DNA from: an uncultured Gammaproteobacteria bacterium
Lineage (GTDB): Bacteria; Patescibacteriota; Patescibacteriia; UBA9934; GWF2-40-263
NCBI GenBank assembly: GCA_964399675.1
Contig: CAYNRK010000003.1
Coordinates: forward strand, 9,033-73,032
Direction of reading: 5' to 3'
Length of the DNA stretch: 64,000 bases
Shown here: piece by piece, positions 20,338 to 58,057 of the stretch
How positions within the stretch are numbered: position 1 is the first letter of the stretch
Layout: each line of letters opens with the position of its first letter
The notes under the pieces: model-generated
Databases searched by the model: none
What the model saw: only the letters and a program-made list of their open reading frames with translations
What the model was told of the DNA's origin: nothing
Made by a program: the position numbers and the translations under genes

Positions 20338-20347
20338 TTTTCTTCTT

Positions 20348-20412: not shown

Positions 20413-20486
20413 ATGAAGTTTTTTGTTTCAATTAGAAAACCCGGTTGCCGAAGCTACCGGGAGTGAAGAGGTTGCAGCGGCCGAAG

Positions 20487-26041: not shown

Positions 26042-26136
26042 ACTCGGATCGGTGCGCACAGGCCTAGTGCACCGTCCGAGGTGGTTGACCAAAAAGGTCA
26101 GTCTGGCTCGATTGTACCTTACAACAGGAGAGAGGC

Positions 26137-28125: not shown

Positions 28126-28229
28126 GTTTCGTCTCGCTGGACTCGGTAACTTGTCCAGCTTTTCTATTTAAAAAACATCCCCAATTTTTCTGCATATCCG
28201 AAAGGATTTATGATATAATTTCAACGGTT

Positions 28230-31163
28230 ATGCAAAACCTTTTTTTCCGTTTGATTGAAACGCTTTTGTTGTTATCTAAGCGTTTGAAATCGTTTACAAA
28301 CCGCAAGAGGAAACAAGCGGGAATTTTTGGTTTAATTACCTTTGTCGGTGTGTTTGTTGCAGCAAGGCCGGTGTTTGCTCAAACATCTGAGCCAGGTGTA
28401 TTGGCTTGGTTTTTTGAATTAATTGGAAATCTAGCCATTGCAATTGCAGGATTCCTTTCTCAAATGGTTGTCGCAATTATAAACGCGATCATACCGGTCA
28501 TGCTTTACAATGATTTCTCAAACAACCCAATTGTAAGTGCTGGTTGGGCAATTATGAGAGACACTGTGAACATGTTCTTTGTTATCATTCTTATCATTGT
28601 TGCTTTTGGAACTATTTTTGGACACTCTCGTTTTCAGTGGCAGCAGCAGATTCCAAAGCTCATGATCTTTGCGATTGTTATCAATTTTTCAAAAACACTT
28701 TGTGGACTCATGATTGATTTTGGACAGATCATCATGCTTACGTTTGCAAATGCACTTCAGGAAATTGCTGCCGGTAACTTTATACAACTTCTCGGACTAG
28801 GTGATATTTATTCAGTTAGTACTGCAACAGACAAAATGCAGAACCAAGGTGGTACAAGTGCATTTGACTGGATGGCAGCAGGCCTTGGTGCTGCATTTAT
28901 TATGTTGATAGTTTTTGTAACCATGGTGCTTTTGCTTGTGATTTTGTTGTATCGCATTGTGATGCTTTGGATTATGATCGTGCTTGCACCTCTTGCCTGG
29001 TTTGTTGGTGGGGCTGGTGGGGCAAATGGGATTGTGCGGTCCAATGCATATGCACAATGGTGGGAACGATTTAAGTGCTTGGTTGCAATTGGTCCTGTTC
29101 TTACGTTTTTTTTATGGCTAACTCTTGCTGTTGCCGGTGCCGGTAATGTTGCGCGCTCGACCGGTTTTAATGTTGGGTCTCCAACAGGGATTAAAAATCC
29201 ATCCGCCATTCTCTCTACAATTTTTGAGCTTGACAGATTTATTAGTTTTATAATTGGAATTGCCATGATCTACGCAGGTTTTGAAGCAGCTCAGCAGTTG
29301 TGTTCTTCAATGTCCGGATCGTTTTTGGGTAAGCAGCTTTCAGGCAAGTCACCGTTTAAAGCACCTGTTGTTAGGGGTGCTGCTGGAGCTGGTGCAAAAG
29401 TTGGTGCATGGGGTGCAAGACAGGCGTATAGACCAATTGGCGCTGCTGGCCGCGGTGTTCGACGTTCATTAGGTGCTGCTCTTGATCAAAAACAAAGCAC
29501 AGGGGGTCGTTGGAAATATACAAAACCATTTACAAGAAAAGGACGTGCTGATATTGCAAGAGCAGCAGTTGGTAAAGCACCAAAACCACTTCAGAAATTA
29601 ATTGCACCTGTTGTGCAAGGATATGCAACTGGTCAAGAACAAAAAACACGCGATGATGTTGCAAAAGCCGCAGAAAAATACAAAGACAGAGACAAATCAG
29701 TTAAGGTTGATCAATTGGAACGATTTGCTGAAGGTGGTGCCAGTACACTTACAGGCGGAAAGAATGAAGCAATGGGTCTTATGATGGAGGCTATGGGTGA
29801 TAAGGAAATGATGAAGCAGCTTAGGGCTTCGGGCGCTGGTGAAAAACTTTGGGAAGAAAACGGAGAGGATCTTAAGCGTGTATATGCCAGCGATTCAGCG
29901 TCAATGGATAAGATTGAAAAGTTTGAAAAAGAAAATGCTGATATAACCGGAGCAACTCATCTTATTAATGACGAACAAGATGTTCGCGATCTTTCAGATC
30001 AGGCTGTGGCAGATGGTGATGTAAGAGCAGCTATGAGAAGTAAGCAGATGAGGTATAAGGGTCAAGTGATGAATATGGAAGATGCTGCAGAGCAAGGTGC
30101 TTTCGGTGCTCGCAAACAAGCGATTGTACAAGAAGCAATGGCTGGTGGTAGTGGTAAAGGAGCTTTGTATGATCGCATGAGCAACAGAGAATTATCAAGA
30201 GTATCAACAGAGGCCCTTCTTTCAAGTGCTTCAGTTGCGACTCTTGCACGTGCGATGAAAGTAGCTACCCAACAAGGCAATGCCGGTCGTGCAGATGCGC
30301 TAAGCGCCGGTATTGCATCGGGTTCTACAGGCGCAGATTCAAATATGCAAATGGCAGACGGAAGAGATGCATTAGAGAGTGCTCAGTGGTCGTTCGAAGA
30401 TGTTCTTGCTGATGAAAGTGTTCCAGATACAGATCGAGCAAGAGTAGAGGACGTAGCCGGTCGTAATGCCGAACGATTGGAGGCTGCACAACAGACAAGT
30501 GCACCAATACTTGGCGAACATCCTGATCAATATGCTGATTCTGTTGTTTTGGCAGAAGAGGAAAGAACAACGCAATTGGTGGGTTATGATGCAATTCAGC
30601 CAATGAGCGCAGCTGCAATCGGGCAGAAATATGTTAAACGAGCCGGATTTGCTGATCAAAGTCAAGAAGAGGTTGGAAGAGCATTGCATGCGGCAGGAAA
30701 CACTGCAGATGCTGTTGATCAAGAAGCAGAAGGACAAAAGAAAGAGATTGCAGAAGCATCACCTGATATGAATCCTATTCTAACTGAATTTCAAAGATTA
30801 ACTGAGGAAATTGGAGGTCTTAGAGAATCGATCGAGACGCAGGTAGAGTCAGAGATGGCGCCAGAGACACAACAACTGGATGCGATTCAAAACCAACTTG
30901 CTTCTAGTGCTTTGGAGGGAGACCAAAGAGAAAAATATAAGATACAAGCCAAGGAAATAGCCAAGGCAATTAATCAGCGACGCTCTGAAGTTACTGATGG
31001 GACACAAATTATGAATTTAATGCGTCAGAAAGCTGCTTTGCAGATTCCTCCTGAACACAAAGATCTTACAGCCAGGATTGTGAAAACAAGTCAGGATAGG
31101 AGGGTTGCCCAAGCTACTGGTGCTGCACTTGAAGATGTTGGAAGAAAAAAGCGTGAAACATGA
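28230..31163 (+). CDS. VirB6/TrbL-like polytopic membrane protein with long hydrophilic C-terminal extension (T4SS-like component)
   Basis: Start at the ATG at 28230, preceded by TATAAT at 28214. The longer ORF-track start at 27966 runs back into the 3' end of the GC-rich M23 gene. At least 6 TM helices (..IVLAPLAWFVGGAGG..), then about 550 aa of charged coiled-coil-like sequence. Confidence 0.5.
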   Translation: MQNLFFRLIETLLLLSKRLKSFTNRKRKQAGIFGLITFVGVFVAARPVFAQTSEPGVLAWFFELIGNLAIAIAGFLSQMVVAIINAIIPVMLYNDFSNNPIVSAGWAIMRDTVNMFFVIILIIVAFGTIFGHSRFQWQQQIPKLMIFAIVINFSKTLCGLMIDFGQIIMLTFANALQEIAAGNFIQLLGLGDIYSVSTATDKMQNQGGTSAFDWMAAGLGAAFIMLIVFVTMVLLLVILLYRIVMLWIMIVLAPLAWFVGGAGGANGIVRSNAYAQWWERFKCLVAIGPVLTFFLWLTLAVAGAGNVARSTGFNVGSPTGIKNPSAILSTIFELDRFISFIIGIAMIYAGFEAAQQLCSSMSGSFLGKQLSGKSPFKAPVVRGAAGAGAKVGAWGARQAYRPIGAAGRGVRRSLGAALDQKQSTGGRWKYTKPFTRKGRADIARAAVGKAPKPLQKLIAPVVQGYATGQEQKTRDDVAKAAEKYKDRDKSVKVDQLERFAEGGASTLTGGKNEAMGLMMEAMGDKEMMKQLRASGAGEKLWEENGEDLKRVYASDSASMDKIEKFEKENADITGATHLINDEQDVRDLSDQAVADGDVRAAMRSKQMRYKGQVMNMEDAAEQGAFGARKQAIVQEAMAGGSGKGALYDRMSNRELSRVSTEALLSSASVATLARAMKVATQQGNAGRADALSAGIASGSTGADSNMQMADGRDALESAQWSFEDVLADESVPDTDRARVEDVAGRNAERLEAAQQTSAPILGEHPDQYADSVVLAEEERTTQLVGYDAIQPMSAAAIGQKYVKRAGFADQSQEEVGRALHAAGNTADAVDQEAEGQKKEIAEASPDMNPILTEFQRLTEEIGGLRESIETQVESEMAPETQQLDAIQNQLASSALEGDQREKYKIQAKEIAKAINQRRSEVTDGTQIMNLMRQKAALQIPPEHKDLTARIVKTSQDRRVAQATGAALEDVGRKKRET

Positions 31164-31196
31164 TTGAAAGAAAGTTATGCAACTTAAAAAATCAAC

Positions 31197-32834
31197 ATGA
31201 CTGACACTTCGTCACAACAGACCCAACAAGTTAGCGAGGAGGTTCGTGAGTATTTGTGGTCTGATGAAGTGTATAAAAGATATGCAGAGACTGCTTTGAA
31301 TCATGGGTTAACAAATGGTTTGCGTGGTGTTGGGTCTATTATGTTGCAGCTTGTTGAAGGAAAGTTGCAAATAAATGATTTGCCTGGAAAGTTGGTTGAG
31401 GTTTTAAAGGTTGATGCAGAAGCTGCAAAGCGAATAAGTCTTGAGCTTGCGCAAACAGTTCTCGTTCAAATCGCTGATAGCATTTCAGGGCTTGATGAAG
31501 TTGTTTTGGTCTGGGGGGGAGAATTGCCAGAGACTAAAGAAAAGCCGGAAAAATTTGTAGATAATTATTTGAAAGGTTTAATTGGTCTTTCAGATAAACA
31601 CATGCATGATCGGTTTGCGTCGTTTTTGGTGAAGCTTATTCGCAAGGAGCGCTCACATGATGAAACAGTCCAGATGATGATGCGGCCAATTAAAGTTGCG
31701 GGATTGGGCCTTGGACAAGTTGAGGCGGAAAAGTTGTTGGATCAGTTTGGGGAGAAAGTTAAGGGGGTTGAGTTTGAGGGGGAAGAGGTCCGAGAGGTAA
31801 AAGAGGTCCGAGAGGGAGAAGATGTTTTGACAGAGCCTGTTGTTGAGGCGTTTGGTGTAGAAGATGCGCGGGAAATTGAGGAAATAAAAAAGTCAGGACC
31901 GGATCTTTCACCTCCAGATAATTTTGAATCAGTGGAAGAAGTTGTTGATACTATCTGTGATCATGAAGTTTTTGATCTTTCAGATAATGTATTAAATAGT
32001 CGGTGTAAAAAAATTATTGATTCCAGAGTACGAGGAGTTAGAGATGCATTTGAAACAAGGAAAAAGTTAGAGCGGCCTACTGATAAAGGCGGGCTTGGGC
32101 TTTCCGGGAGAAAATTAGCAGATATGATGGAGTTTTTAGAAAAGAGTTTGCAAGTGTATCAGAAGAGTCATACAAAACATGTTGAAACAAAGAGAGCTGA
32201 GCATGGTGCAACTCAACAAGAACAAAAACAGCAAAAAGAACAACTCAAGAAAAAAGAAGAGCAAGTTTTGTCAAAGCGATATGCGTCCTTAACCGGCAAG
32301 GCTCCGACAGAGTCAGTAAAGCCGGCAGCCCCACCTCTTGGACGAGCAAGTGTTTCAGTTTCAGCTCAACAACAAATTAATCAGCAAGAAGAAAAAATCA
32401 ACACACAGCGAGTTAGGGGTGCGATTGAAAGTGCAAAAGCTAAGCAGCCTGCAAAGCCTCAGCCAAAAAAGGTTAAGCCAAACATGTCTGATGTTAAATT
32501 TGAGCGAAGGCTTTCAAGTCCCATTGATGAACTTCGTACCATGGATCTAAAAGATTTTAGACGTTTAGCTTCAGATGCTGCGCAAGCAGCTACAAAGATT
32601 AAGGACAAAGTACGTTTAATGGAAGATCAGGGTTATGAAAAAAAGATTGAAGCAATCAAAGCTTGGCGTGAGTCACCTGTGAATCAATTATATGTTAAGT
32701 ATTCGCGTGAGGCACTTCTTAATGGCAAAGCACTTGCAGATGTTTTAAAAAGCCATCAAGACGTTGGCAAGGACGCACTTACTGACAAAGAACTTAAAGC
32801 AATAATGAAGATTAATACGGACTTGCGTTTCTAG
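31197..32834 (+). CDS. hypothetical hydrophilic K/E-rich protein in the T4SS-like locus
   Basis: 545-aa ORF with no TM segments and a coiled-coil-like middle. Tightly packed between the VirB6-like and VirB3-like genes. Confidence 0.5.
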   Translation: MTDTSSQQTQQVSEEVREYLWSDEVYKRYAETALNHGLTNGLRGVGSIMLQLVEGKLQINDLPGKLVEVLKVDAEAAKRISLELAQTVLVQIADSISGLDEVVLVWGGELPETKEKPEKFVDNYLKGLIGLSDKHMHDRFASFLVKLIRKERSHDETVQMMMRPIKVAGLGLGQVEAEKLLDQFGEKVKGVEFEGEEVREVKEVREGEDVLTEPVVEAFGVEDAREIEEIKKSGPDLSPPDNFESVEEVVDTICDHEVFDLSDNVLNSRCKKIIDSRVRGVRDAFETRKKLERPTDKGGLGLSGRKLADMMEFLEKSLQVYQKSHTKHVETKRAEHGATQQEQKQQKEQLKKKEEQVLSKRYASLTGKAPTESVKPAAPPLGRASVSVSAQQQINQQEEKINTQRVRGAIESAKAKQPAKPQPKKVKPNMSDVKFERRLSSPIDELRTMDLKDFRRLASDAAQAATKIKDKVRLMEDQGYEKKIEAIKAWRESPVNQLYVKYSREALLNGKALADVLKSHQDVGKDALTDKELKAIMKINTDLRF

Positions 32835-32838
32835 ATGT

Positions 32839-33273
32839 ATGCCAGAGCAGTTCACAATCCCACAATTTATTGAGTCAGAAGATAAAATTTTTGGGCCTGT
32901 AACAGCCAGGCAATTTATTATTGTCATGGTTGTTGGGCTTGTAGAGTTTATTTTGTTTAAGGCGATTTCTTTTGTCATATTCTTACTGATAGGTATTCCG
33001 TTTTTTGCTCTTGGAATGATTTTCGCATTTGCCAAAGTCAATGGTCAGCCTTTTCACTACTTTATGTTAAACTTAATTCAGACATTTAAAAAACCATCAC
33101 TGCGAGTTTGGGATAAGACCCTGACGGATTCTGAAATTAAATTTATTATAAAAAAGGTTGAGGAGATTCCACCTGAAGCGCCAAAACGAAAAACAAGATT
33201 AGGTAAATCAAGACTTCAAGAACTTACCCTTGTTGTGAATACAGGCGGTGTATATAAACCAGACGAGAACTAG
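32839..33273 (+). CDS. small two-TM membrane protein (VirB3/PrgI-like) immediately preceding VirB4
   Basis: 144 aa with a hydrophobic hairpin (FIIVMVVGLVEFILF / FVIFLLIGIPFFALGMIFAF). Positioned as in Gram-positive-type T4SS operons. Confidence 0.4.
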   Translation: MPEQFTIPQFIESEDKIFGPVTARQFIIVMVVGLVEFILFKAISFVIFLLIGIPFFALGMIFAFAKVNGQPFHYFMLNLIQTFKKPSLRVWDKTLTDSEIKFIIKKVEEIPPEAPKRKTRLGKSRLQELTLVVNTGGVYKPDEN

Positions 33274-33274
33274 T

Positions 33275-33955
33275 ATGCAATCCAAAAAACTTGCAAAACC
33301 AAAACCAGGACCATCAACGCAGCGCTTTCTTGACATTGCTGAGATTCGAGACGACTTGGTTGTACTAAAAGACGGAACAGTTCGCGGTTTGCTTTTGGTT
33401 TCCAGTATTAACTTCGCACTCAAGTCTGTTGATGAACAAGAGGCAGTTATTCAGGCTTACATGATGTTTCTTAATGGTCTGGAATATCCGATTCAGATTG
33501 TGATTCAATCGCGTCGCATGAACATTGATCCATATATGCAACGGCTTGCAGAACAGCAACGGGCAACTGGGAATGATTTACTTCGTGCGCAAATTTCAGA
33601 TTACAGAAATTTTGTTCAGGAACTTGTTGAACTTGGACAGATAATGCAAAAGCGATTTTATATGGTTGTGCCTTATGATCCTGTTTCTGACAAGAAAAAG
33701 AATTTCTGGACGAGATTTTCCTCGGTTCTTTCACCAGCAGCTTCTTCAAAACTAAACAAAAAACAATTTGAAGAGCGGGCTGAACAACTGTCTCGTCGAA
33801 TTAATGTTGTTATTGGTCAACTCAATGGCATGGGGCTTGCGTCTGTTCGTATGGACACGCAAAGTCTTATTGAGCTTTATTATAATGCTTATAATCCAGA
33901 TCTTTTTGAAAGTGAGAAGCTGGCAGATCTGTCACAAATTCGTCACGAAGAATAA
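33275..33955 (+). CDS. VirB4/TrbE-family N-terminal domain, separated from the ATPase part by a single in-frame TAA
   Basis: ...DIAEIRDDLVVLKDGTVRGLLLVSSINFALKSVDEQEAVIQAYMMFLNGLEYPIQIVIQSRRMNI... matches the CagE/TrbE/VirB4 N-terminal pattern. It is in the same reading frame as 33959..36043. Confidence 0.55.
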   Translation: MQSKKLAKPKPGPSTQRFLDIAEIRDDLVVLKDGTVRGLLLVSSINFALKSVDEQEAVIQAYMMFLNGLEYPIQIVIQSRRMNIDPYMQRLAEQQRATGNDLLRAQISDYRNFVQELVELGQIMQKRFYMVVPYDPVSDKKKNFWTRFSSVLSPAASSKLNKKQFEERAEQLSRRINVVIGQLNGMGLASVRMDTQSLIELYYNAYNPDLFESEKLADLSQIRHEE

Positions 33956-33958
33956 TCT

Positions 33959-36043
33959 ATGCCACTTGATATAGGACAAGTAAAAAAAGCCATGCCAGCA
34001 CCGGCTCCAAAGAAACCAGTTAAATTAAAGCCGGAAGAGGTAAAGGTTAAGCAAGAAAAGCTCGTTTTAGAAGAGGAGCGAATTTATCGTCGGGGTGTTG
34101 TAACTGTTAAAGATGTTATTGCTCCTGCGGCATTTCAAGTCAATCCAAGGCACCTTTTACTTTCAGGTGTTTATGTGCAAACGCTTTTCATTATTACTTA
34201 CCCGCGTCACATTGGTATTGGTTGGGCAACGCCGCTTATTAATTTGAATAAAACTTTTGATGTTGCAATGTTTTTTTATCCACTCAAAGCAAACATTGTA
34301 CTCAAACAGCTTCAGAAAAAAGTTGGTGTGTTTGAGGCAAAGGTTCTGGGTGATGCTGAAAAAGGTGCGCCGCGTGATCCAATTGCTGAGACTGCATTAC
34401 GTGACATTGAGGCGCTTCGCGATGCACTTACGCAAGGGATTGAACATTTTTTCCAATTTGCTTTTTACATTACAATTTACGCAAAGAGTCAGGACGAACT
34501 TGATAAATATGCACAAGAAGTTGAAGCGCTGTTTGGGAGCAAGTTGATTTATACAAAGACTGGTTTTTATCAAACCGAACAAGGATTTAATTCCACAATC
34601 CCGCTTGGTAATGATGAGATCATGATTACCTATAACATGAACACATCGCCAATAGCAGCATCCTTCCCGTTTGTGAGTTCTGATGTTTCTTCTGATGATG
34701 GAATTTTGTATGGGATTAATAGACACAACAACTCGCTTATCTTGTTTGATCGGTTTAGTTTGCAAAACGCTAACTCGGTTGTGTTTGCTACTTCTGGTGC
34801 TGGAAAGTCCTATGCTATTAAACTTGAGATTTTGCGAAGCTTGATGATGGGAACAGATGTGATTGTGATTGATCCTGAAATGGAATATAAAGATTTGTCT
34901 GACGCAACCGGAGGAACATATATTAATGTGTCACTTGCTTCGGATGCAAAAGTTAATCCGTTTGATTTGCCGCGCGCGGTTGGAGAGGGTACAAAAGTTG
35001 AAGATATAATTAGAAGCGCTGTTATTACTCTTAAGGGTCTTTTGCGTATTATGATCGGAAAGCCGCAAGGGGCTTCCGGCACTCTTGGTTTCACACCAGA
35101 GGAAGATTCCATGCTTGACCAAGCGCTTATTGAGACATTTGCGAAAAAAGACATCACACCTGATATTACGGATTTATCCAATGTAGAAGCTCCGATTTTT
35201 TCTGATTTTCAAGATGTGCTTGAAGGTATGGAAGGGGCTGATGATTTAGTAGCACGGTTGCGCAAATATACTGAAGGTACATTTTCCGGACTTCTTAATT
35301 CTCCAACAACTGTTGAGATGGATAATCAGCTTGTAGTCTTTTCTGTGCGAGATTTAGAAGATGAGCTTAGGCCTGTTGGAATTTATTCCATTGTTAATTA
35401 TATTTGGAATGTTGTGCGTTCTGTGCGAAAGAAGCGAATCATGGTTATTGATGAGGCTTGGTGGCTGATGCAACAGGAAGATTCTGCTAAGTTTATTTTT
35501 GCACTTGTAAAGCGTTGTAGAAAATACTTCATGGGAGTCACAACAATCACGCAAGATGTTAATGACTTTTTGCGCTCGCCTTATGGTCAGGCGATTGTAA
35601 CAAACTCCTCGCTCCAAATTTTGCTTAAGCAATCTACGTCCGCGATTGATCTCGTTCAAAAGACGTTTAATTTAACGGATGGAGAAAAGTATTTACTTTT
35701 GGAATCAGGTATTGGAGAAGGAATTTTCTTTGCCGGACAAAAGCACGCGGCAATTAAAATTATTGCTTCTTATACTGAAGATCAAATTGTTACAACAAAT
35801 CCGGCACAGCTTTTGGAGATTGAAGAGGCAAAGAAAGAGTTTGAGGCGCAGCTTGAAGAGAAGGGTGGAGGAGAGGTAGCCCCAGGCTTTAGCCTGGGCG
35901 AAGATGTCGAAGGGGAGGAAAAGATTACAGTTAATGAAGCTCAAAAAGAAGCGCAAGCACAAGACGCTGCTTCAGCACTTTTGTCACAAGAAGATGCCGG
36001 CAAAGCCGAAGCAGATAAAATTCGCGATTCACTTACCATATGA
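33959..36043 (+). CDS. VirB4/TraC-like conjugative-transfer ATPase, C-terminal ATPase portion
   Basis: Walker A VFATSGAGKSYAIK; Walker B RIMVIDEAWWLM (DEAW); 694 aa. Together with the preceding ORF, about 930 aa. Confidence 0.75.
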   Translation: MPLDIGQVKKAMPAPAPKKPVKLKPEEVKVKQEKLVLEEERIYRRGVVTVKDVIAPAAFQVNPRHLLLSGVYVQTLFIITYPRHIGIGWATPLINLNKTFDVAMFFYPLKANIVLKQLQKKVGVFEAKVLGDAEKGAPRDPIAETALRDIEALRDALTQGIEHFFQFAFYITIYAKSQDELDKYAQEVEALFGSKLIYTKTGFYQTEQGFNSTIPLGNDEIMITYNMNTSPIAASFPFVSSDVSSDDGILYGINRHNNSLILFDRFSLQNANSVVFATSGAGKSYAIKLEILRSLMMGTDVIVIDPEMEYKDLSDATGGTYINVSLASDAKVNPFDLPRAVGEGTKVEDIIRSAVITLKGLLRIMIGKPQGASGTLGFTPEEDSMLDQALIETFAKKDITPDITDLSNVEAPIFSDFQDVLEGMEGADDLVARLRKYTEGTFSGLLNSPTTVEMDNQLVVFSVRDLEDELRPVGIYSIVNYIWNVVRSVRKKRIMVIDEAWWLMQQEDSAKFIFALVKRCRKYFMGVTTITQDVNDFLRSPYGQAIVTNSSLQILLKQSTSAIDLVQKTFNLTDGEKYLLLESGIGEGIFFAGQKHAAIKIIASYTEDQIVTTNPAQLLEIEEAKKEFEAQLEEKGGGEVAPGFSLGEDVEGEEKITVNEAQKEAQAQDAASALLSQEDAGKAEADKIRDSLTI

Positions 36044-37292: not shown

Positions 37293-37314
37293 GTTTAATT
37301 CTCCAAAAATAACT

Positions 37315-38154
37315 ATGTCTAAAAAAGGCAACTCAATTATACTTTTTCATGAAAAACAAGTTCGTCGTTATTGGGATGAGGAAGATGAACTTTGGTATTT
37401 TTCGATTGTGGATGTTCTTGAAGTTTTAACAGGAAATACAAGACCGAGAAAATATTGGAATGATTTAAAAAAGAAGCTGTTGCTTGAGGGCAGTCAGTTG
37501 TCCGAAAAAATCGGACAACTGAAAATGCAGTCATCTGATGGAAAATTTTATAAAACTGATGTTTTGGATACGGAAAATTTATTGAGACTTATTCAATCGG
37601 TGCCGTCTCCAAAAGCAGAGCCATTGAAACTTTGGCTTGCCCAAGTTGGTTACGAGCGAATTGAAGAAACCGAAGATCCTGAACTTGCTTTTGACCGAGC
37701 AATGCAAACCTATTTGCAAAAAGGCTATTCCAAAGACTGGATAAATCAAAGACTTAAAACAATCGAAGTTCGCAAAGAACTCACAGATGAGTGGAAAGAA
37801 CGAGGAGTTAAAGAAGGTTTAGAATTTGCTATTTTGACGGATGAAATTACCAAAGCTTGGTCTGGAAAGTCTGTAAAACAGTACAAAAAGTTTAAAGATC
37901 TTAAAAAGCAAAACTTGAGAGACAACATGACCAATCTTGAACTTATTTTGAACATGCTTGCCGAAGCGACAACGACCGAAATTTCAAAAGAAAAAGAGCC
38001 AAAGACTTTATTGGAAAGCAAGGGAATTGCAAGAGAGGGAGGAGAGACAGCAGGAAAAGCAAGAAAAGATATTGAAAAGAAAATAGGGAAAAATGTTATT
38101 TCTTCCAAAAGCGTAAAAGAGTTAAAAAATTCAAAACAAGATCTACTTCAGTAA
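37315..38154 (+). CDS. Bro-N domain protein (phage antirepressor / DinD-like)
   Basis: N-terminal ...ILFHEKQVRRYWDEEDELWYFSIVDVLEVLTG... matches the Bro-N pattern. The ATG at 37315 follows the comFC stop. Confidence 0.6.
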   Translation: MSKKGNSIILFHEKQVRRYWDEEDELWYFSIVDVLEVLTGNTRPRKYWNDLKKKLLLEGSQLSEKIGQLKMQSSDGKFYKTDVLDTENLLRLIQSVPSPKAEPLKLWLAQVGYERIEETEDPELAFDRAMQTYLQKGYSKDWINQRLKTIEVRKELTDEWKERGVKEGLEFAILTDEITKAWSGKSVKQYKKFKDLKKQNLRDNMTNLELILNMLAEATTTEISKEKEPKTLLESKGIAREGGETAGKARKDIEKKIGKNVISSKSVKELKNSKQDLLQ

Positions 38155-43818: not shown

Positions 43819-44991
43819 TTAACCGGTAGGTTTTTTTAGCTCAGCTTTCATTTTATCCCAATCAAACTTAACACATGGACCAGTAACAATATCTTTTCTG
43901 TGTTTTTCTTGAGTGAGTCCAATTCGATTCCAATCCAAGTTTCTTGGATCAGCATGTCCAATTGCACAATGTCCAATTATATGATCATCATCAAAAGGTA
44001 CGTTTGTGAAAGATGTTAAGGTTCGTAGGAGTATGTTAAGAGATTTATATTGCTCATCTGTCCAAGTGCATTTTGAACTCTTCTCTCTGCTCTTTACAAT
44101 TTCATAAGACGCACCACAGCTGTTTGCAAGATCAATTCCAATGGAATATGAATTGATGCCTGCAGCGTGATATGCTGTTTTTTCGATTCCCATTGTTTGA
44201 ATAACTTCACCATCTCTTCCAATAACATAATGAGTTGAAAGACCCCTCTTTTTTAGGACTGCAATTGTTTGTTTGGCTGTACGAGCACCCTCATGAAGCA
44301 CAATATATTTTACTTTTTTAAAATCTCTATTACAGCCATAGTTGTCTAATTCAGTATTGAAAGTGCCCCCAGTAATTGAAGTCGCATCTACAGAAGGTTG
44401 TTTCCCCCGACACGGTTGTCCTTTTGGATATTTTTTTGGTGGAGGTGGAGCAGGCCATGGAGGAGGCATGTCATGGACATGAATTTGATCAACAACCAAA
44501 GCATCAAAGAAAATAAGTTCTGGGTTAACAACATAAAGAATTGTGTAAACACTAAAAAGAAGAACAACTCCAGTTACTGCATCTTTGATTCGTTTTTTTG
44601 CTTTGCCAGTGTCTGTGCCACCTGAGGCCAGTACGTATTGCAATCCACCTATCATTATCATGACAATTGCGATGACCACTGAAATACCAATCAGATATCG
44701 ATATGCAGCAGTAACATAATCACCTATAAAGGAAACAACAATTTTGTCATCTTTTAAAAGAACATTTGAAAATTTTAGTCCTGGAATGTCAACATTTAAA
44801 TCCGGTGTTATGAAATCAACCACTTCAGTATCCGTTGATGCGCTTGCAGAAACAGAGGTGCTAACTGCCGGAGATGCTGCTGGATCAGGGTCAACCGCTG
44901 AAACTGACAAAGGCAAAATCATGATGATTAACATCACAATTGCCAGTGAATTTTTTTTATCAAGTTTTAACATTTTGGTGGGAATGGACAC
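43819..44991 (-). CDS. membrane-anchored N-acetylmuramoyl-L-alanine amidase (Amidase_2/PGRP domain) with N-terminal two-TM pilin-like module
   Basis: C-terminal ...KYIVLHEGART...HYVIGRDGEVIQ...AYHAAGINSYSIGIDL... The N-terminal ~120 aa are paralogous to the adjacent gene (..YRYLIGISVVIAIVMIMIGGLQYVLASGGTDTGKAKKRIKDAVTGVVLL..). Confidence 0.65.
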   Translation of the reverse strand: MSIPTKMLKLDKKNSLAIVMLIIMILPLSVSAVDPDPAASPAVSTSVSASASTDTEVVDFITPDLNVDIPGLKFSNVLLKDDKIVVSFIGDYVTAAYRYLIGISVVIAIVMIMIGGLQYVLASGGTDTGKAKKRIKDAVTGVVLLFSVYTILYVVNPELIFFDALVVDQIHVHDMPPPWPAPPPPKKYPKGQPCRGKQPSVDATSITGGTFNTELDNYGCNRDFKKVKYIVLHEGARTAKQTIAVLKKRGLSTHYVIGRDGEVIQTMGIEKTAYHAAGINSYSIGIDLANSCGASYEIVKSREKSSKCTWTDEQYKSLNILLRTLTSFTNVPFDDDHIIGHCAIGHADPRNLDWNRIGLTQEKHRKDIVTGPCVKFDWDKMKAELKKPTG

Positions 44992-46124
44992 GATGCCCCT
45001 TTACATCGACAAGAAGTTCCGCCTTTTCCTTTAAGTTCAAAGTGCCAGAGTTCTTTTGAATATCTTACAAAACCAGCCTCAGCCATGATTTCGGCTAAAA
45101 GTTTTCCTGGATCTTCAAATTCTGAATTGTTCTGCACTCTTTTGGATGTTGGTGTGATTTTTTTTGCACCATCTGCAAGGTAAAGATCTATTGCAATACC
45201 ACTTCCATGATTTGATCCGCCTGGATAAGCAACAAGACTTCCGATTTCTTTTATTGCTTTTTCTCGTTTTACTGGATCTTCAATTTTGTATCTATTACAC
45301 ACCATTTTTATTTGTGTTTTAAGCGGCCTAAAACCACTGTAAGCTACAAGAAGATACTCTGTATCATAAAAAAAACCTTCACCTTTCTTTTTTGCAATCT
45401 CTCCGGCACGAGCCAATGCCGTTATCAATTCTTCTGTTCCTCTTGTGCCTGAACTATTTTTTAAACCAGTTGAGTTTGGGATTCTACGAGTTAGTTTTGG
45501 GTCAATTGTTTTTTCAGTACTTGTGGGCCAGGAGCTTGGATCTGGATGGTCATTACACCATTTTAAACATTCTGCTTTGGATTTACATACTGCTGATTTA
45601 TAAAGTTCGCTTCCTTTTTCTGCAACATCACCTGGCTCTTCAAAAACTTCAATAGGTATTCTCTCGATACGTTCAAGTCTAAGCGGACCAAACAAAACAA
45701 GGGATGGATTAACTGTATACAAGATCAAATAAACACTTAAGAGAAGTACAACACCGGTTGCGGCGTCTTTAATTCTTTTTTTAGCTTTACCCGTGTCTGT
45801 GCCACCTGAGGCAAGAACATACTGCAGACCACCAATCATGAGCATTACAATGGCAATGATGGATGAGATGCCGATCAGATAACGGTACATTGCAGAGACA
45901 TAGTCTCCTAGAAAATTAACTTCGAACTCACCACCTCTTGTAATAACGTCTGTAAATTTGAGTCCTGGAATATCAACATTCAGTGTCGGTGAAACAAAGG
46001 TTGGTGCAGCTTCTGCTGTTGTGCCCGGTTTTGCGGCTATGGTTACTGAAGCAAACGAAAAGAAAATGATCAGAGCGATCATTATTCCTAAATTTATACG
46101 AATAAGTAGTTTAACTAATGTCAT
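44967..46124 (-). CDS. membrane-anchored M15-family (VanY-like) D,D-/L,D-peptidase with the same N-terminal two-TM pilin-like module
   Basis: C-terminal SNHGSGIAIDL and ELWHFE motifs (Zn-binding H/D/H of M15). N-terminal module ..YRYLIGISSIIAIVMLMIGGLQYVLASGGTDTGKAKKRIKDAATGVVLL.. is paralogous to 43819..44991. Confidence 0.65.
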   Translation of the reverse strand: MTLVKLLIRINLGIMIALIIFFSFASVTIAAKPGTTAEAAPTFVSPTLNVDIPGLKFTDVITRGGEFEVNFLGDYVSAMYRYLIGISSIIAIVMLMIGGLQYVLASGGTDTGKAKKRIKDAATGVVLLLSVYLILYTVNPSLVLFGPLRLERIERIPIEVFEEPGDVAEKGSELYKSAVCKSKAECLKWCNDHPDPSSWPTSTEKTIDPKLTRRIPNSTGLKNSSGTRGTEELITALARAGEIAKKKGEGFFYDTEYLLVAYSGFRPLKTQIKMVCNRYKIEDPVKREKAIKEIGSLVAYPGGSNHGSGIAIDLYLADGAKKITPTSKRVQNNSEFEDPGKLLAEIMAEAGFVRYSKELWHFELKGKGGTSCRCKGASCPFPPKC

Positions 46125-46780
46125 TTAATAACAGCTAATTGAGTTTGGACAACTTCTAAGAGACGTTCCAAAGTAACAGCTCCCACCAGGATTTCATCTC
46201 CAATGTACAATATTGGAGATGCTGCAATGCCCAAAGCGATTCCTTCTTCAAAATCTTTTCTTATAATCGGAAGAGTTTCACTGCTTGCATAGCAAGATTG
46301 GAACTTGTCCATATTTAACTCAAGGTCTGTTGCGATTTCTGTGTATTGGAGATCAGAAAGAAAAGTTTGTCTTTTAAACAGCATGTCATGATAATCCCAG
46401 AACCTTCCTTGTTCCTGGGCACAGTGAGCTGCAATGGCGGCTGGTGTGGCTTGCTTATGCACGGAATCATTTGGGAGATTCTTCCATACTAGTCTTAAGT
46501 CATCGGGGTAAGTGTTTAACACGATTTCAAGAGGGGTTTGAATATCACCACAGGCAATACATTCAAAATCGCTAAACTCAACAATTGTCAGTTTTGCGTT
46601 AGGTGATCCTTTTGATGGATTGATAAATGTTACAATCGGTGCATCCAACTTTTCTTCCGAAGCTTCTTGTCTTATTGCCTCAAAGTCAATTTCAATAGGC
46701 TGAATACGAATATAAAAAAGAATTAGGACAAAGACGGCCACGCCAGAGAAGATAAGGTAGGCAAGTGTTTTATGATTCAT
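46121..46780 (-). CDS. thioredoxin-fold DsbA-like thiol:disulfide oxidoreductase, membrane-anchored
   Basis: N-terminal TM segment; CxxC active site (FSDFECIACGD); DsbA-like length. Confidence 0.6.
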   Translation of the reverse strand: MNHKTLAYLIFSGVAVFVLILFYIRIQPIEIDFEAIRQEASEEKLDAPIVTFINPSKGSPNAKLTIVEFSDFECIACGDIQTPLEIVLNTYPDDLRLVWKNLPNDSVHKQATPAAIAAHCAQEQGRFWDYHDMLFKRQTFLSDLQYTEIATDLELNMDKFQSCYASSETLPIIRKDFEEGIALGIAASPILYIGDEILVGAVTLERLLEVVQTQLAVIK

Positions 46781-46782
46781 AG

Positions 46783-48006
46783 TTATTTGAGTCTAATGTA
46801 CTCAAGTTGTCCGGTTGCAAGACTTGTGAAGTAAAGAGTTGATTCGTCTTTGCTTACGGAAAGATTTTTCATGGAAGTATCATTTTCTGGAACAGCAATA
46901 GCAACTGAACGGCCTGTTGTTAAATTAATTTTGTAGACTGTGTCAGGGAGATCTTCATAAAGAGATCGTTGCAGTCCGGCATTGTTTGGAAGTCCGCGGG
47001 GGATTGCACAATAGATTGTTGTTGATGATCCCCAGGTACATTTGTCAATCCATGTGTTTAGGCCAAGGCTTCGTCTGTTTTCACCCATGCTTGAGGATGA
47101 AGCATTAACAATCCAAAGAAGTGGCTTGTATTGACTATAATTTCCGGAAACTGAATACAAAAGCTGTTTGCCGTTTGATGACCATTTTGATTCAAAGCCT
47201 AAACCTTCCACAATAAGACCTTTGAAGTTTTCACCTTTTTTTCCAACCGGGATAATCATTTTTCGATCAAGGTCTGCTGAGATTGTTCCGGCAGTATCAG
47301 CAAAGGCAACAACCTGATCGTTTGGCGACCAATTTACTTGTACCTTGTCAGCATTTGTTCCGAGCGCTTGCAGATTTTTTACATTTGATCCATTGGCACT
47401 GGTGCTTATGAGATATCGATTATTTGGATCAAGAGCAATGCTTTTTGCTGCGATTTCATCTTTGACCGGCGAGAAGTCAAATTCCTCCCAGTGGCTTGGT
47501 AAAGTTACCTGTGTTTCATTTTCAAAATCGTAAACAATATTTGAACCATCTGGAAATTCCATTACTGCCTTGTCAGCATCTTTGTTCCAATCGAGTGACT
47601 CCACTTCAGGAAATTGTTTATCAGAGAGTGCAATAACATTACCGTCTTTATCTATGGTGTAGAATCGACCATCGTTAGGGTCATAATAATTCACGTTCTG
47701 TCCATCGCTTGCGATTGTTGTGTTAAAAACTTCCGCTGTTGTTAAAACAGTTGTTTGCGTAAGACCTCCTTGTGCCACTTCATCTGCTTCAACAAGCCCA
47801 GCTTCTTCTTCGTCAATGTCTTCTAGTTCAAACTCTGGAGAGCCTTCAAGCGCGCCTGGTAATTCTCCGGCCATACCTTCTTCTTCGGTTATGACTTCAG
47901 GTTGTTGTTCTGGGGCAAAGAACATGTAATAAAGCGCTCCGCCAATAATTATGACAGAGATAATAAAACCAACAACGATGAGGATTTTTTTGAGATTAAA
48001 ATTCAT
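46783..48006 (-). CDS. secreted/anchored protein with PD40/TolB-like beta-propeller repeats
   Basis: N-terminal TM after MNFNLKKILIVVGFIISVIIIGG, so the start is placed at 48006. The longer ORF-track start at 48093 would overlap the upstream gene. Repeats of the SPNDQVVAF / SSNGKQLLY type. Confidence 0.45.
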   Translation of the reverse strand: MNFNLKKILIVVGFIISVIIIGGALYYMFFAPEQQPEVITEEEGMAGELPGALEGSPEFELEDIDEEEAGLVEADEVAQGGLTQTTVLTTAEVFNTTIASDGQNVNYYDPNDGRFYTIDKDGNVIALSDKQFPEVESLDWNKDADKAVMEFPDGSNIVYDFENETQVTLPSHWEEFDFSPVKDEIAAKSIALDPNNRYLISTSANGSNVKNLQALGTNADKVQVNWSPNDQVVAFADTAGTISADLDRKMIIPVGKKGENFKGLIVEGLGFESKWSSNGKQLLYSVSGNYSQYKPLLWIVNASSSSMGENRRSLGLNTWIDKCTWGSSTTIYCAIPRGLPNNAGLQRSLYEDLPDTVYKINLTTGRSVAIAVPENDTSMKNLSVSKDESTLYFTSLATGQLEYIRLK

Positions 48007-48821
48007 AGAATGCCAATATAATTTAAAATACCAGCCCCAAGAGCAACAGGTACCCAGATGGGGAAGGTGACTGCCAACATTGCAATAATGCACAATAAGA
48101 GAAGAGCCAGGTCTGCTGCTATTACAATGCTGGTAATAATCATTTTTGATTTATCCAGTTTATCCATAAGAGGTATTGGCTGCCATTCAATGGGATCAAT
48201 AACAATACTTTTGCCTTTTGTATACCACCATCCATACCATGTCTCAACGTTTAGATATCCTAAAGAGAGAACTTGAATAACAAAAGTGACAATAATGCCT
48301 ACGCCTGCGGTACCAATATCCAAGACAGCACAGATTGCATTTACGATAAAATTTGCCCCGCGTATAATTAGTTTTTTCACCTGCTTTTTCACCTGTTTTC
48401 TAACTTCACTTTTTACAGCGTCTTTGGCAGTGCCTTTTACATCTTTGGCAAGATTTACACCTTGTCGGGCAGCTTTTAGTTGTCCAAGTTTACTTCCTTT
48501 ATCTCTGGCTGTTTCAAATTGTTTTTTAATTTCTTCAGCTTGTTTTTTCAAGACCTCCATTCCTGTTGGTTGCCGGCTCTGTGTTTTTGGAAGTTGGGGT
48601 AAAGTTGTGTTGATGGCGTTAGGCGCTTTGGCTTGCTGAGCTTTTCTCTGAGCTTGTTGTCGGCCTTGCATGAGTTGGCTCCGCCATGTTGGTGTTTGTA
48701 CGTCTACTTTATTGGGCTGTGAAATTGTTTCTGTTTTTGGTTTTGTTTGAGTATTCAAAGCAGCAGCCCGACTTGCACCAGGATTTTGTGGGGCAGTTGC
48801 AGCTGCAGCTTGAATAGCCAT
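48003..48821 (-). CDS. hypothetical membrane protein (Q/K-rich N-terminal half, 3 C-terminal TM helices)
   Basis: 272-aa ORF translationally coupled (ATGA) with the downstream gene. Confidence 0.45.
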   Translation of the reverse strand: MAIQAAAATAPQNPGASRAAALNTQTKPKTETISQPNKVDVQTPTWRSQLMQGRQQAQRKAQQAKAPNAINTTLPQLPKTQSRQPTGMEVLKKQAEEIKKQFETARDKGSKLGQLKAARQGVNLAKDVKGTAKDAVKSEVRKQVKKQVKKLIIRGANFIVNAICAVLDIGTAGVGIIVTFVIQVLSLGYLNVETWYGWWYTKGKSIVIDPIEWQPIPLMDKLDKSKMIITSIVIAADLALLLLCIIAMLAVTFPIWVPVALGAGILNYIGIL

Positions 48822-57604: not shown

Positions 57605-57607
57605 ATA

Positions 57608-58051: not shown

Positions 58052-58057
58052 AGTTTT

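What the first reader, a model, noticed from the sequence alone, without database searches (positions are those of the whole stretch)
43819..46124. Tandem paralogous peptidoglycan hydrolases sharing an N-terminal two-TM, pilin/VirB2-like module
Both proteins begin with signal/TM followed by a conserved ~120-aa module (..NVDIPGLKF...GDYV.A.YRYLIGIS..IAIVM.MIGGLQYVLASGGTDTGKAKKRIKDA.TGVVLL.SVY.ILY.VNP..). This is two hydrophobic helices joined by a short basic loop. The C-termini then diverge into an Amidase_2/PGRP amidase and an M15 VanY-like peptidase. Fusing a membrane hairpin reminiscent of conjugative pilin (VirB2/TrbC) topology to two different wall-cutting enzymes suggests a targeted lytic device, for instance for local remodelling at a secretion or pilus site or for attacking a host cell wall. 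A DsbA-like gene follows.
Basis: partly seen in the sequence, partly recalled or inferred. Interest (0 to 1): 0.6.

Follow-up and report, generated by a model that had tools for sequence, protein, structure and literature searches.

The report
Pilin-anchored cell-wall hydrolase gene pair
Two neighbouring genes of an uncultured ultra-small (Patescibacteria) bacterium each fuse a conjugative-pilin-type membrane hairpin to a different cell-wall-cutting enzyme, and relatives keep the hairpin but swap the enzyme, which suggests their type IV secretion apparatus carries exchangeable wall-cutting tools.

Summary
Genes A (43819-44991, minus strand) and B (44967-46124, minus strand) share a ~115-aa module (64% identity over 129 aa, E 4e-52). 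The C-termini are unrelated: Amidase_2 in A, a VanY/M15 zinc peptidase in B. A DsbA gene abuts B.

- **Module identity.** It scores above Pfam's cut-off for T4SS_pilin (PF18895), the VirB2-like pilin family of Patescibacteria. It is not a generic anchor: 16,582 cluster representatives match it. Between genomes it is as conserved as ClpB, RadA and RecG.
- **Domain swapping.** Of the 150 best matches, 141 carry a C-terminal domain of 100 aa or more: VanY/M15, C39-like, NlpC/P60, M23, M15_4, Amidase_2, SLT, 3D or unknown.
- **Conserved slot.** In about a dozen related genomes the same slot (DsbA-[1-3 fusions]-RadA) holds different enzyme combinations. A T4SS cluster (VirB6-like, PrgI, VirB4) lies 5-8 kb away.
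- **Catalytic residues.** The zinc ligands are intact in both enzymes, but two non-ligand positions in A differ from AmpD.

Best reading: extracytoplasmic wall hydrolases tethered and targeted by a pilin hairpin, working with the T4SS or pilus. Whether they cut the cell's own wall or the host's is unresolved. I found no paper describing this fusion. I rate it a new variant of a known kind.

The parts
44967..46124 (-). Gene B, 385 aa: signal peptide, pilin-type hairpin module, linker, VanY/M15 zinc peptidase
   Evidence: ORF. Pfam T4SS_pilin 30.2 bits, VanY 38.2, Peptidase_M15 30.1. AF2 model mean pLDDT 86.6. The same gene call appears in public assemblies.
45666..46010 (-). Module of B (aa 39-153): PxLNVDIPGxxF motif, small beta-hairpin (aa 61-69), helix 71-104, loop GGTDTG, helix 111-138 beginning KAKKRIK
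   Evidence: The profile of the two modules finds 16,582 cluster representatives.
44970..45608 (-). C-terminal domain of B (aa 173-385): M15/LAS-type zinc peptidase with R266, Q271, H306-x6-D313 and E358-x-W-H361. All 8 Cys of the protein lie here.
   Evidence: These residues are invariant in a 31-sequence alignment. Foldseek's top PDB hit is VanX 1r44 at E 2.9e-7, followed by the L-Ala-D-Glu endopeptidase ChiX.
43819..44991 (-). Gene A, 390 aa from GTG (384 aa from the ATG at 44973): signal peptide, pilin-type hairpin module, Pro-rich linker, Amidase_2
   Evidence: ORF. Pfam T4SS_pilin 33.3 bits, Amidase_2 69.3 bits. It is identical to P0001 and to public gene calls.
44482..44826 (-). Module of A (aa 56-170)
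   Evidence: DNA is 72% identical to B's module, dN/dS 0.14.
43942..44319 (-). Amidase_2 (MurNAc-L-Ala amidase) domain of A (aa 225-350). Zn ligands H233, H341 and D348 are present. The AmpD Glu116 position is Asp287 and the AmpD Lys162 position is His.
   Evidence: Pfam, AmpD/AmpDh2 alignments and invariant columns. The AF2 model of A was too poor to use (pLDDT 53.8).
46121..46780 (-). Membrane-anchored DsbA-like thiol-disulfide oxidoreductase (CxxC at aa 74-77), overlapping B's start by 4 nt
   Evidence: Pfam Thioredoxin_4 73.7 bits, DSBA 45.7 bits; anchor and CxxC. A DsbA gene lies immediately upstream of the fusion gene(s) in the window and 15 distinct related loci.
46783..48093 (-). Membrane-anchored beta-propeller protein (probable true start near 48006), a conserved partner upstream of DsbA
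   Evidence: Only weak PD40/WD40-type Pfam hits. Orthologues at 50-61% identity occupy the same position in relatives. A beta-propeller gene also sits next to a distant 4-hairpin-SLT fusion.
48003..48821 (-). Lys-rich membrane protein of unknown function, between ClpB and the propeller gene
   Evidence: No family hit. A homologue is detectable in only three relatives, L005, L008 and L010.
26137..36043 (+). Type IV secretion gene cluster: M23 peptidase (26137-28125), TrbL/VirB6-like (27966-31163), unknown (31197-32834), PrgI/VirB3-like (32839-33273), TrsD-like or VirB4-N-terminal-like (33248-33955), VirB4 ATPase (33959-36043)
   Evidence: Pfam and NCBIfam. The same cluster lies at the same relative position in L009 and L011, and immediately upstream of a pilin fusion gene in L015.

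Best explanation
A and B are secreted, membrane-tethered peptidoglycan hydrolases whose tether is a VirB2-type pilin hairpin (Pfam T4SS_pilin).

Proposed sequence of events:
1. A Sec signal peptide puts the N-terminus outside the cell.
2. Helix 1 crosses inwards, the basic loop (KAKKRIK) stays on the cytoplasmic face, and helix 2 crosses back out.
3. A flexible or Pro-rich linker of about 35-50 residues therefore presents the catalytic domain on the outer face of the membrane.
4. The adjacent membrane-anchored DsbA forms the domain's disulfides; all 6 and 8 cysteines lie in this part.
5. The amidase removes stem peptides from MurNAc, and the M15 enzyme cuts within or at the end of the stem peptide.

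The hairpin is conserved like a real pilin, and the organism's T4SS genes lie nearby. I therefore infer that it acts as a targeting and assembly module, placing exchangeable wall-cutting domains at the T4SS or pilus site. There they would open peptidoglycan locally, a VirB1-like job.

Status of each step:
- Shown: the architecture, family membership, intact metal-binding and catalytic motifs, the DsbA linkage, and domain swapping on a conserved module in a conserved chromosomal slot.
- Inferred: the topology, enzymatic activity, coupling to the T4SS, and which wall (the cell's own or the host's) is cut.
For: - **Family membership.** The module passes the Pfam T4SS_pilin cut-off in both proteins.
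- **Fold.** AF2 gives a confident helix-loop-helix with the basic loop, and hydrophobic segments and charges fit an N-out/C-out topology.
- **Family size.** A profile of the module finds 16,582 cluster representatives. Of the best 150, 141 carry tails of 100 aa or more.
- **Wall-enzyme tails.** Wall-cutting classes among those tails: VanY/M15 30, C39_2/C70-like 22, NlpC/P60 (C40) 22, M23 19, M15_4 12, Amidase_2 3, plus SLT and 3D.
- **Slot contents.** The syntenic slot DsbA-[fusions]-RadA holds M23; M23+C39; VanY; C39+VanY+amidase; M23+VanY; M23+P60; or VanY+M15_4 in different relatives.
- **Module conservation.** It is 47-58% identical between these genomes, the same range as ClpB, RadA and RecG (48-67%) and above DsbA (38-51%). 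dN/dS between the two window copies is 0.14.
- **Clustering.** Modules group by genome, not by catalytic class, so the tails were exchanged on a retained module.
- **T4SS proximity.** The T4SS cluster lies 8 kb away in the window, at the same relative position in L009 and L011, and directly upstream of a fusion gene in L015.
- **Model organism.** In Southlakia epibionticum, separate VirB2-like pilins and wall hydrolases (including a DD-peptidase fold) sit in one T4SS cluster and are essential (PMC10633639 supplements; PMC12102498). Here the two functions are fused.
- **Catalytic residues.** They are intact in B (R266, H306, D313, E358, H361), and B's fold matches VanX. The Zn ligands are intact in A.
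Against: - The genes lie outside the T4SS cluster, in an operon-like run with housekeeping and stress genes (LemA, HtpX-like M48, ClpB, RadA) on the opposite strand.
- The T4SS cluster already has its own M23 hydrolase.
- Direct similarity to canonical VirB2/TrbC is not significant.
- Fold search matches the hairpin only to generic helical hairpins.
- A 25-kDa domain on every subunit is hard to reconcile with a homopolymeric pilus.
- Proteins with 2-4 tandem hairpins look more like membrane anchors than polymerising subunits.
- In A, two non-ligand catalytic positions differ from AmpD (Glu to Asp, Lys to His), so activity is unproven.
- No expression or localisation data exist.
Confidence: 0.5

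Rival explanations
1. Housekeeping autolysins. The pilin hairpin has been co-opted purely as a membrane anchor, and the enzymes serve the cell's own wall growth, turnover or daughter-cell separation, with no functional link to the T4SS.
For: - The genes sit in a conserved run of housekeeping and stress genes: LemA, M48, ClpB, a propeller protein and DsbA upstream, RadA downstream.
- Every relative examined has at least one copy in this slot.
- No immunity-like gene is adjacent; the genes overlap or are 3 nt apart.
- Tandem multi-hairpin versions look like anchors.
- The T4SS cluster has its own M23 hydrolase.
Against: - Housekeeping enzymes are normally orthologous between relatives. Here the catalytic domain in one syntenic slot is replaced by non-homologous classes, and copy number varies from 1 to 3.
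- The anchor is conserved at pilin-specific positions (PxLxVxIPG, GG-Q-Y, K-x-R, NP) as strongly as ClpB and RadA. Simple anchoring does not require that.
- In L015 the fusion gene directly follows the VirB4 cluster.
Confidence: 0.25
2. Offensive 'lytic pilus'. The fusion proteins are incorporated, as minor or tip-proximal subunits, into the VirB2-type pilus. The C-terminal enzymes are displayed on the pilus surface and digest the wall of the host or prey bacterium at the contact site. The enzyme repertoire is swapped to match host wall chemistry.
For: - Cassette-like exchange of lytic domains on a constant module resembles the pattern of phage lysins and polymorphic effectors (general knowledge).
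- No standalone pilin is detectable in the window or in the related loci, so the fusions are the only VirB2-like proteins near these T4SS clusters.
- The Patescibacteria T4SS and its pilins are essential for epibiotic growth in the one genetic model (PMC10633639; PMC12857230).
- In solved conjugative pili both pilin termini face outwards. This is from my own knowledge of the F-pilus structures and was not tested here.
Against: - No immunity genes are present.
- Steric load would be high if many subunits carried a 25-kDa domain.
- No pilus has been seen for this lineage.
- The link to the pilus is by homology only, and direct similarity to canonical VirB2 is insignificant.
- Standalone pilins may exist elsewhere in the genome; only 64 kb of a 264-kb contig was visible.
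Confidence: 0.2
3. Generic signal-anchor, or a prophage-derived membrane-tethered (SAR-type) endolysin pair. On this reading the shared N-terminus has no significance beyond these two genes.
For: Amidase_2, M15, M23, NlpC/P60 and SLT are also typical phage lysin domains (general knowledge). A BRO-N domain gene lies 6 kb away.
Against: - The module matches a curated Pfam family and 16,582 cluster representatives.
- The context is chromosomal and syntenic across about a dozen genomes, with no phage genes adjacent.
- A pattern scan of IMG/VR found no relatives.
Confidence: 0.03

Closest known systems
VirB2-like pilins of Patescibacteria (Pfam T4SS_pilin, PF18895), e.g. the essential pilin array SEML1_0014-0019 of Southlakia epibionticum
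   Same: Signal peptide, then two hydrophobic helices with a short basic loop and an NP motif after helix 2. Pfam score is above threshold. Both occur in tandem arrays (PMC12102498) and in the same phylum. Standalone pilins with the same extended module exist, e.g. P0152 at 141 aa.
   Different: The described pilins are small standalone proteins, and that paper reports a pilin gene near virB4 in 1,135 of 1,948 assemblies. Here each hairpin carries a ~220-aa wall hydrolase, the genes lie 8 kb from virB4 beside DsbA, and paralogues are 64-72% identical, against a reported mean of 25% and maximum of 54% in arrays.
T4SS-associated peptidoglycan hydrolases (VirB1; PrgK, TraG of pIP501, CwlT in monoderm systems; SEML1_0006/0007 in Southlakia)
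   Same: Extracytoplasmic, often membrane-anchored, multi-class wall hydrolases (SLT, CHAP/NlpC-P60, LytM/M23, DD-peptidase fold) that serve a T4SS (PMC12102498).
   Different: The known examples, as I recall them, are anchored by an ordinary TM segment or lipid and are encoded inside the T4SS operon. Here the anchor is itself the pilin fold, and the genes sit in a separate, conserved DsbA-linked slot.
AmpD/AmpDh-type Amidase_2 enzymes and VanX/VanY/ChiX M15 (LAS) zinc peptidases
   Same: Catalytic domains are homologous. For A: AmpD 1j3g at E 5e-7 and AmpDh2. For B: VanX 1r44 by fold at E 2.9e-7, then ChiX. Metal ligands are conserved.
   Different: Similarity is low (B is 23% identical to VanX over the Foldseek alignment), so substrate bond specificity cannot be assigned. 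The domains are Cys-rich and extracytoplasmic and are fused to a pilin hairpin. In A, positions Glu116 and Lys162 of AmpD are Asp and His.
Polymorphic toxins and phage lysins (a constant delivery module with exchangeable lytic domains)
   Same: A constant N-terminal module carries non-homologous C-terminal lytic domains, exchanged between close loci.
   Different: There is no adjacent immunity gene, no phage or toxin-system context, and no relatives in viral contigs.

Membership tests
Pfam T4SS_pilin (PF18895; VirB2-like pilins of Patescibacteria) | Score at or above the curated gathering threshold (26.6 bits) | tested here: met
   A scores 33.3 bits (aa 99-155) and B 30.2 bits (aa 82-137). 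The same holds for nearly all relatives tested.
Pfam T4SS_pilin (PF18895; VirB2-like pilins of Patescibacteria) | Cleavable signal peptide followed by two hydrophobic helices joined by a short positively charged loop | tested here: met
   AF2 model of B: helices 71-104 and 111-138, loop GGTDTG followed by KAKKRIK. Signal-peptide cleavage itself is inferred, not tested.
Pfam T4SS_pilin (PF18895; VirB2-like pilins of Patescibacteria) | Small standalone protein (about 100-180 aa) | tested here: not met
   A is 390 aa and B 385 aa, each with a ~220-aa enzymatic C-terminus. They are therefore pilin-domain fusion proteins, not pilins in the ordinary sense.
Pfam T4SS_pilin (PF18895; VirB2-like pilins of Patescibacteria) | Encoded next to virB4 or other T4SS genes | tested here: inconclusive
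   VirB4 ends at 36043 and gene A begins at 43819, on the opposite strand, with RecG, RadA and three tRNA genes between them. The same spacing is seen in L009 and L011, and direct adjacency in L015.
Pfam T4SS_pilin (PF18895; VirB2-like pilins of Patescibacteria) | Polymerises into an extracellular pilus | not testable with these tools
   Needs microscopy or biochemistry. No multimer modelling was available.
Canonical VirB2/TrbC pilins (PF04956) | Detectable sequence or profile similarity to bona fide VirB2/TrbC | tested here: not met
   There is no PF04956 hit at E<=1 for A or B. hhalign of the 35-module profile against A. tumefaciens VirB2 (sequence checked against annotated virB2) gives probability 0.2%. 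Only indirect links exist: a related fusion in L014 hits PF04956 at E 0.0057, and P0159 and Southlakia pilins hit both families.
Amidase_2 (PF01510; zinc MurNAc-L-alanine amidases of AmpD/T7 lysozyme/PGRP type) | Family score above threshold and three zinc ligands (His, His, Asp/Cys) | tested here: met
   69.3 bits against a cut-off of 26. H233, H341 and D348 are invariant in the alignment with relatives and align with the AmpD ligands.
Amidase_2 (PF01510; zinc MurNAc-L-alanine amidases of AmpD/T7 lysozyme/PGRP type) | Catalytic acid/base and lysine as in AmpD (Glu116, Lys162) | tested here: inconclusive
   The SIGIE motif reads SIGID (Asp287), and the Lys position before DP is His, in all three pilin-fused amidases (P0001/A, P0012, P0045) and in the frameshifted L008 amidase ORF. 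The residue numbering of AmpD is from my own knowledge. Activity is untested.
M15 / LAS zinc peptidases (VanY PF02557, VanX PF01427) | Family score above threshold plus the Arg, H-x6-D and E-x-x-H motifs | tested here: met
   VanY 38.2 bits (cut-off 25) and Peptidase_M15 30.1 bits (cut-off 27). R266, H306, D313, E358 and H361 are invariant in 31 sequences.
M15 / LAS zinc peptidases (VanY PF02557, VanX PF01427) | LAS fold | tested here: met
   AF2 gives pLDDT mostly >90 for aa 173-385. The Foldseek top hit is VanX 1r44 at E 2.9e-7, followed by ChiX 5opz.
VirB1-type T4SS wall hydrolases (functional class) | Peptidoglycan hydrolase encoded within, and required for, a T4SS | tested here: inconclusive
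   Hydrolase domains are present. The genes are near but not within the cluster in the window, and within or adjacent to it in L015. The requirement for T4SS function cannot be tested here.
Polymorphic toxin/effector-immunity pairs | Cognate immunity gene immediately adjacent | tested here: not met
   DsbA, B, A and RadA overlap or are separated by 3 nt or less, and no small ORF lies between them. The same tight packing is seen in relatives.

The most novel reading that the evidence does not exclude
In this Patescibacteria lineage, the T4SS may use pilin-hydrolase fusions as structural subunits. That would give a pilus, or pilus base, decorated with exchangeable wall-cutting enzymes that breaches the host bacterium's peptidoglycan at the contact site. 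The DsbA-[fusion]n slot would then act as a cassette that tracks host wall chemistry. If so, the unexplained essentiality of the T4SS and its pilins in epibiotic Patescibacteria would be explained as a wall-breaching, feeding or attachment device.
Probability: 0.2. Interest if true: 0.85.

Novelty: new variant of a known kind. Interest (0 to 1): 0.6.

Why it matters
Patescibacteria make up a large share of bacterial diversity. In the one genetically tractable species, the T4SS and its VirB2-like pilins are essential for growth on a host, yet what the machine does is unknown (PMC10633639; PMC12857230).

A very large family in which the pilin hairpin is covalently fused to exchangeable peptidoglycan hydrolases acts as a 'Rosetta-stone' link between pilin and wall cutting. 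It yields concrete, testable predictions:
- enzyme activity on host versus self peptidoglycan;
- localisation at the contact site;
- correlation of catalytic class with host wall type.

It also shows that public annotation names these proteins only by their enzyme domain and misses the pilin part.

Tried and rejected
1. Word-indexed homologue searches with the module, a 35-module profile and A's amidase tail returned almost nothing (0, 11 and 2 hits). The exhaustive HMM search was needed instead.
2. hhalign of the module profile against A. tumefaciens VirB2 was not significant, so membership in canonical VirB2/TrbC is not claimed.
3. Fold search matched the hairpin only to generic helical hairpins such as ATP synthase subunit c and HtrII. 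That is uninformative for a two-helix unit.
4. The AF2 model of A from a 5-sequence alignment was poor (pLDDT 53.8) and was not used for fold search.
6. The Pfam scan of all 150 relatives at once exceeded the size limit. It was replaced by clustering the tails and scanning representatives.
7. Recent gene conversion between the two modules was rejected: DNA is 72% identical and dS is ~1.8.
8. Phage origin was rejected: there are no relatives in IMG/VR by pattern scan and the context is chromosomal and syntenic.
9. An effector-immunity reading was rejected for lack of any adjacent small gene.
10. Literature searches found pilins and T4SS hydrolases discussed separately, but no description of the fusion.
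Full report
**1. The observation**

Two co-directional, slightly overlapping ORFs lie on the minus strand.
- Gene B is 44967-46124 (385 aa).
- Gene A is 43819-44991 (390 aa from GTG; 384 aa from the ATG at 44973, which is the public gene call).

BLASTP of one against the other gives a single significant segment: 82/129 identities (64%), E 4e-52. It covers the region after the signal peptide, and nothing downstream is similar.
- A has Amidase_2 at 69.3 bits.
- B has VanY at 38.2 bits and Peptidase_M15 at 30.1 bits.
- The gene just upstream, 46121-46780, is a DsbA/Thioredoxin_4 protein with a membrane anchor and CxxC.

No third copy of the module is detectable in any frame of the window. The two module DNAs are 72% identical, with dS ~1.8 and dN/dS 0.14. 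They are therefore old paralogues under purifying selection, not a recent duplication or conversion tract.

**2. What the shared module is**

Both modules score above the curated threshold of Pfam T4SS_pilin, PF18895 (33.3 and 30.2 bits against 26.6). They also give weak hits to NCBIfam's Mycoplasma-ICE 'pilin-like conjugal transfer protein'.

PF18895 is the family used in the literature for the VirB2-like pilins of Patescibacteria (PMC12102498). In Southlakia epibionticum these pilins are essential and lie in the T4SS cluster (PMC10633639).

An AlphaFold2 model of B (31-sequence alignment, mean pLDDT 86.6) has these elements:
- a signal helix (aa 2-21);
- a small beta-hairpin (aa 61-69);
- helix 71-104, loop GGTDTG, then helix 111-138 beginning KAKKRIK;
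- a low-confidence linker;
- a confident C-terminal domain (aa 173-385).

Hydropathy and charge distribution fit an N-out/loop-in/C-out topology. The enzyme domains would then be extracytoplasmic. This is an inference from the positive-inside rule.

Direct similarity to canonical VirB2/TrbC is not demonstrable. There is no PF04956 hit at E<=1. hhalign against A. tumefaciens VirB2 gives probability 0.2%; my recalled sequence matched annotated virB2 at 99%. Foldseek matches the hairpin only to generic hairpins. The link to VirB2 is therefore at the level of PF18895 membership plus bridging sequences that hit both families.

**3. The module is not a generic anchor**

A profile of the two modules, searched exhaustively against 1.84 billion cluster representatives, found 16,582 matches at E<=1e-3 and 3,583 at E<=1e-10. 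In the 150 best:
- 145 have one module and 5 have two to four in tandem.
- 141 have a C-terminal tail of 100 aa or more.
- Most have a Cys-rich head of about 100 aa that A and B lack.

Nearly invariant positions include P-x-L-x-[VI]-x-I-P-G-x-x-F before helix 1, GG-x-Q-Y in helix 1, K-x-R in the loop and N-P after helix 2. Short standalone pilins share them (P0152, P0154-P0156).

Between related genomes the module is 47-58% identical. ClpB, RadA and RecG are 48-67% identical and DsbA 38-51%.

**4. Domain swapping**

Clustering the tails and scanning representatives in Pfam (plus source names) gave these classes:

| Tail class | Count among 150 |
|---|---|
| VanY/M15 | 30 |
| Peptidase_C39_2/C70-like | 22 |
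| NlpC/P60 ('C40 family peptidase') | 22 |
| M23 | 19 |
| M15_4 | 12 |
| Amidase_2 | 3 |
| Group with SLT-like motifs but no Pfam hit | 13 |

Smaller groups carry SLT, 3D, weak glucosaminidase hits or no hit at all.

The GTDB scan and contig look-ups show a conserved neighbourhood in genomes labelled Patescibacteria or Candidatus Uhrbacteria. The order is LemA, M48 peptidase, ClpB, a membrane protein, a beta-propeller protein, DsbA, then one to three pilin-hydrolase genes, then RadA, converging on RecG.

The slot holds different combinations in different relatives:

| Locus | Enzymes in the slot |
|---|---|
| Window | VanY + Amidase_2 |
| L004 | M23 |
| L005 | M23 + C39 |
| L007 | VanY |
| L008 | C39 + VanY + an apparently frameshifted amidase |
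| L009 | M23 + VanY |
| L010 | M23 + P60 |
| L011 | VanY + M15_4 |
| L017 | C39 |
| L019 | P60 |

Modules cluster by genome rather than by enzyme class. Within-genome identities are 72% in the window, 74% in L009, 84% in L011 and 62% in L010. Positional orthologues in L006 and L008 are 69-70% identical yet carry different tails. The tails have therefore been exchanged on a retained module.

DsbA lies immediately upstream of the fusion gene(s) in the window and in 15 distinct related loci. It is absent there in three others (L015, L016, L021). All cysteines of A (6) and B (8) lie in the C-terminal parts.

**5. Catalytic competence**

In B, the residues R266, Q271, H306-x6-D313 and E358-x-W-H361 are invariant across 31 homologues. 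The fold matches VanX at E 2.9e-7 and the L-Ala-D-Glu endopeptidase ChiX. The exact bond cleaved cannot be assigned.

In A, the zinc ligands H233, H341 and D348 are invariant and align with those of AmpD. The AmpD Glu116 and Lys162 positions are Asp and His in the pilin-fused subgroup, so activity is likely but unproven. The model of A was too poor to use.

**6. Link to the T4SS**

The window carries a monoderm-type T4SS cluster on the plus strand at 26137-36043. Its genes are an M23 peptidase, a TrbL/VirB6-like protein, an unknown, a PrgI/VirB3-like protein, a TrsD-like protein and VirB4.

The cluster ends 8 kb from gene A. The same arrangement recurs in L009 and L011. In the more distant L015 a pilin fusion gene directly follows the VirB4 cluster. 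No standalone pilin is detectable in the window or in the fetched loci, but only part of each genome was visible.

In Southlakia, wall hydrolases and the pilin array are separate, essential genes of one T4SS cluster. The hydrolases are lysozyme-like and Cys-protease domains in SEML1_0006 and a DD-peptidase fold in SEML1_0007. The fusion seen here argues, Rosetta-stone fashion, that pilin and wall hydrolysis act together.

**7. Mechanism and rivals**

- **Best reading (about 0.5).** These are extracytoplasmic hydrolases tethered and targeted by a pilin hairpin and folded with help from DsbA. They open peptidoglycan where the T4SS or pilus operates.
- **Housekeeping autolysins with a co-opted anchor (about 0.25).** The housekeeping neighbourhood and the absence of immunity genes favour this. 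Non-orthologous replacement of the enzyme in one slot, and pilin-grade conservation of the hairpin, disfavour it.
- **Pilus-displayed enzymes attacking the host wall (about 0.2).** This is the most novel reading that the evidence does not exclude.
- **Generic anchor or phage lysin.** Effectively excluded.

**8. Novelty**

VirB2-like pilins in Patescibacteria, pilin arrays and T4SS-linked hydrolases are all published. I found no paper in the searchable library that describes pilin-hydrolase fusions or the DsbA-linked swap slot. Public records name these proteins by the enzyme domain or as hypothetical, although precomputed Pfam annotations already show both domains.

I rate it a new variant of a known kind, with interest 0.6.

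Noticed in passing
window 20001-24000, 26001-28000 and 2001-4000: These stretches have 0.50-0.58 GC in a ~0.40 GC genome, with many overlapping ORFs on both strands. They include a Ser/Thr protein kinase (22271-24265) and the M23 peptidase that heads the T4SS cluster (26137-28125). They may be horizontally acquired islands or assembly mosaics.
   Followed up: no
window 10657-20337 (+): A giant 3,226-aa ORF whose only family hit is a weak carbohydrate-binding CBM_4_9 match. It may be a large surface protein.
   Followed up: no
window 33248-33955 and 33959-36043 (+): The VirB4 ATPase is preceded by a separate 235-aa ORF that matches the N-terminal part of VirB4-family and TrsD/TraD models. Orthologues of both ORFs lie next to each other in L009 and L015.
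   Followed up: partly
window 46783-48821 (-); L016:3368-4495: A membrane-anchored beta-propeller protein is conserved immediately upstream of DsbA and the pilin fusions in all close relatives; a Lys-rich membrane protein ahead of it has a detectable homologue in only three (L005, L008, L010). A beta-propeller gene also lies next to a distant 4-hairpin-SLT fusion. Their function is unknown, but they may belong to the same system.
   Followed up: partly
P0007, P0024, P0114, P0128, P0137 (relatives): Some relatives carry two to four pilin hairpins in tandem in one polypeptide. In P0007, four hairpins are followed by an SLT lytic transglycosylase.
   Followed up: partly
L008:12393-13968: The third fusion gene of this relative appears split. 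A module ORF ends 18 aa after the hairpin, and an amidase ORF continues in another frame. This may be a frameshift, a pseudogene or a sequencing error.
   Followed up: no
L006, L007, L008, L013, L015 (records CAYHDY01, CAZPPQ01, CAYHWG01, CAZDOL01): MAGs titled 'uncultured Gammaproteobacteria' carry the same Patescibacteria-type synteny, with proteins 50-67% identical to the window's. Their taxonomic labels look wrong.
   Followed up: no
window 56021-60340 (-): A MoxR-like AAA ATPase (56021-57604), a small ORF and a 760-aa protein with a VWA-like (CobT_C) match lie in a row.
   Followed up: no
window 37162-38154 (+): A BRO-N domain protein, a domain common in phages and viruses, lies between the ComF-like gene and the tRNA genes, just downstream of the T4SS cluster.
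   Followed up: no
alignments A2 and A4 (relatives): Most relatives carry a Cys-rich head of about 100 aa (C-x-C ... C ... C pattern) between the signal peptide and the module. A and B lack it.
   Followed up: no
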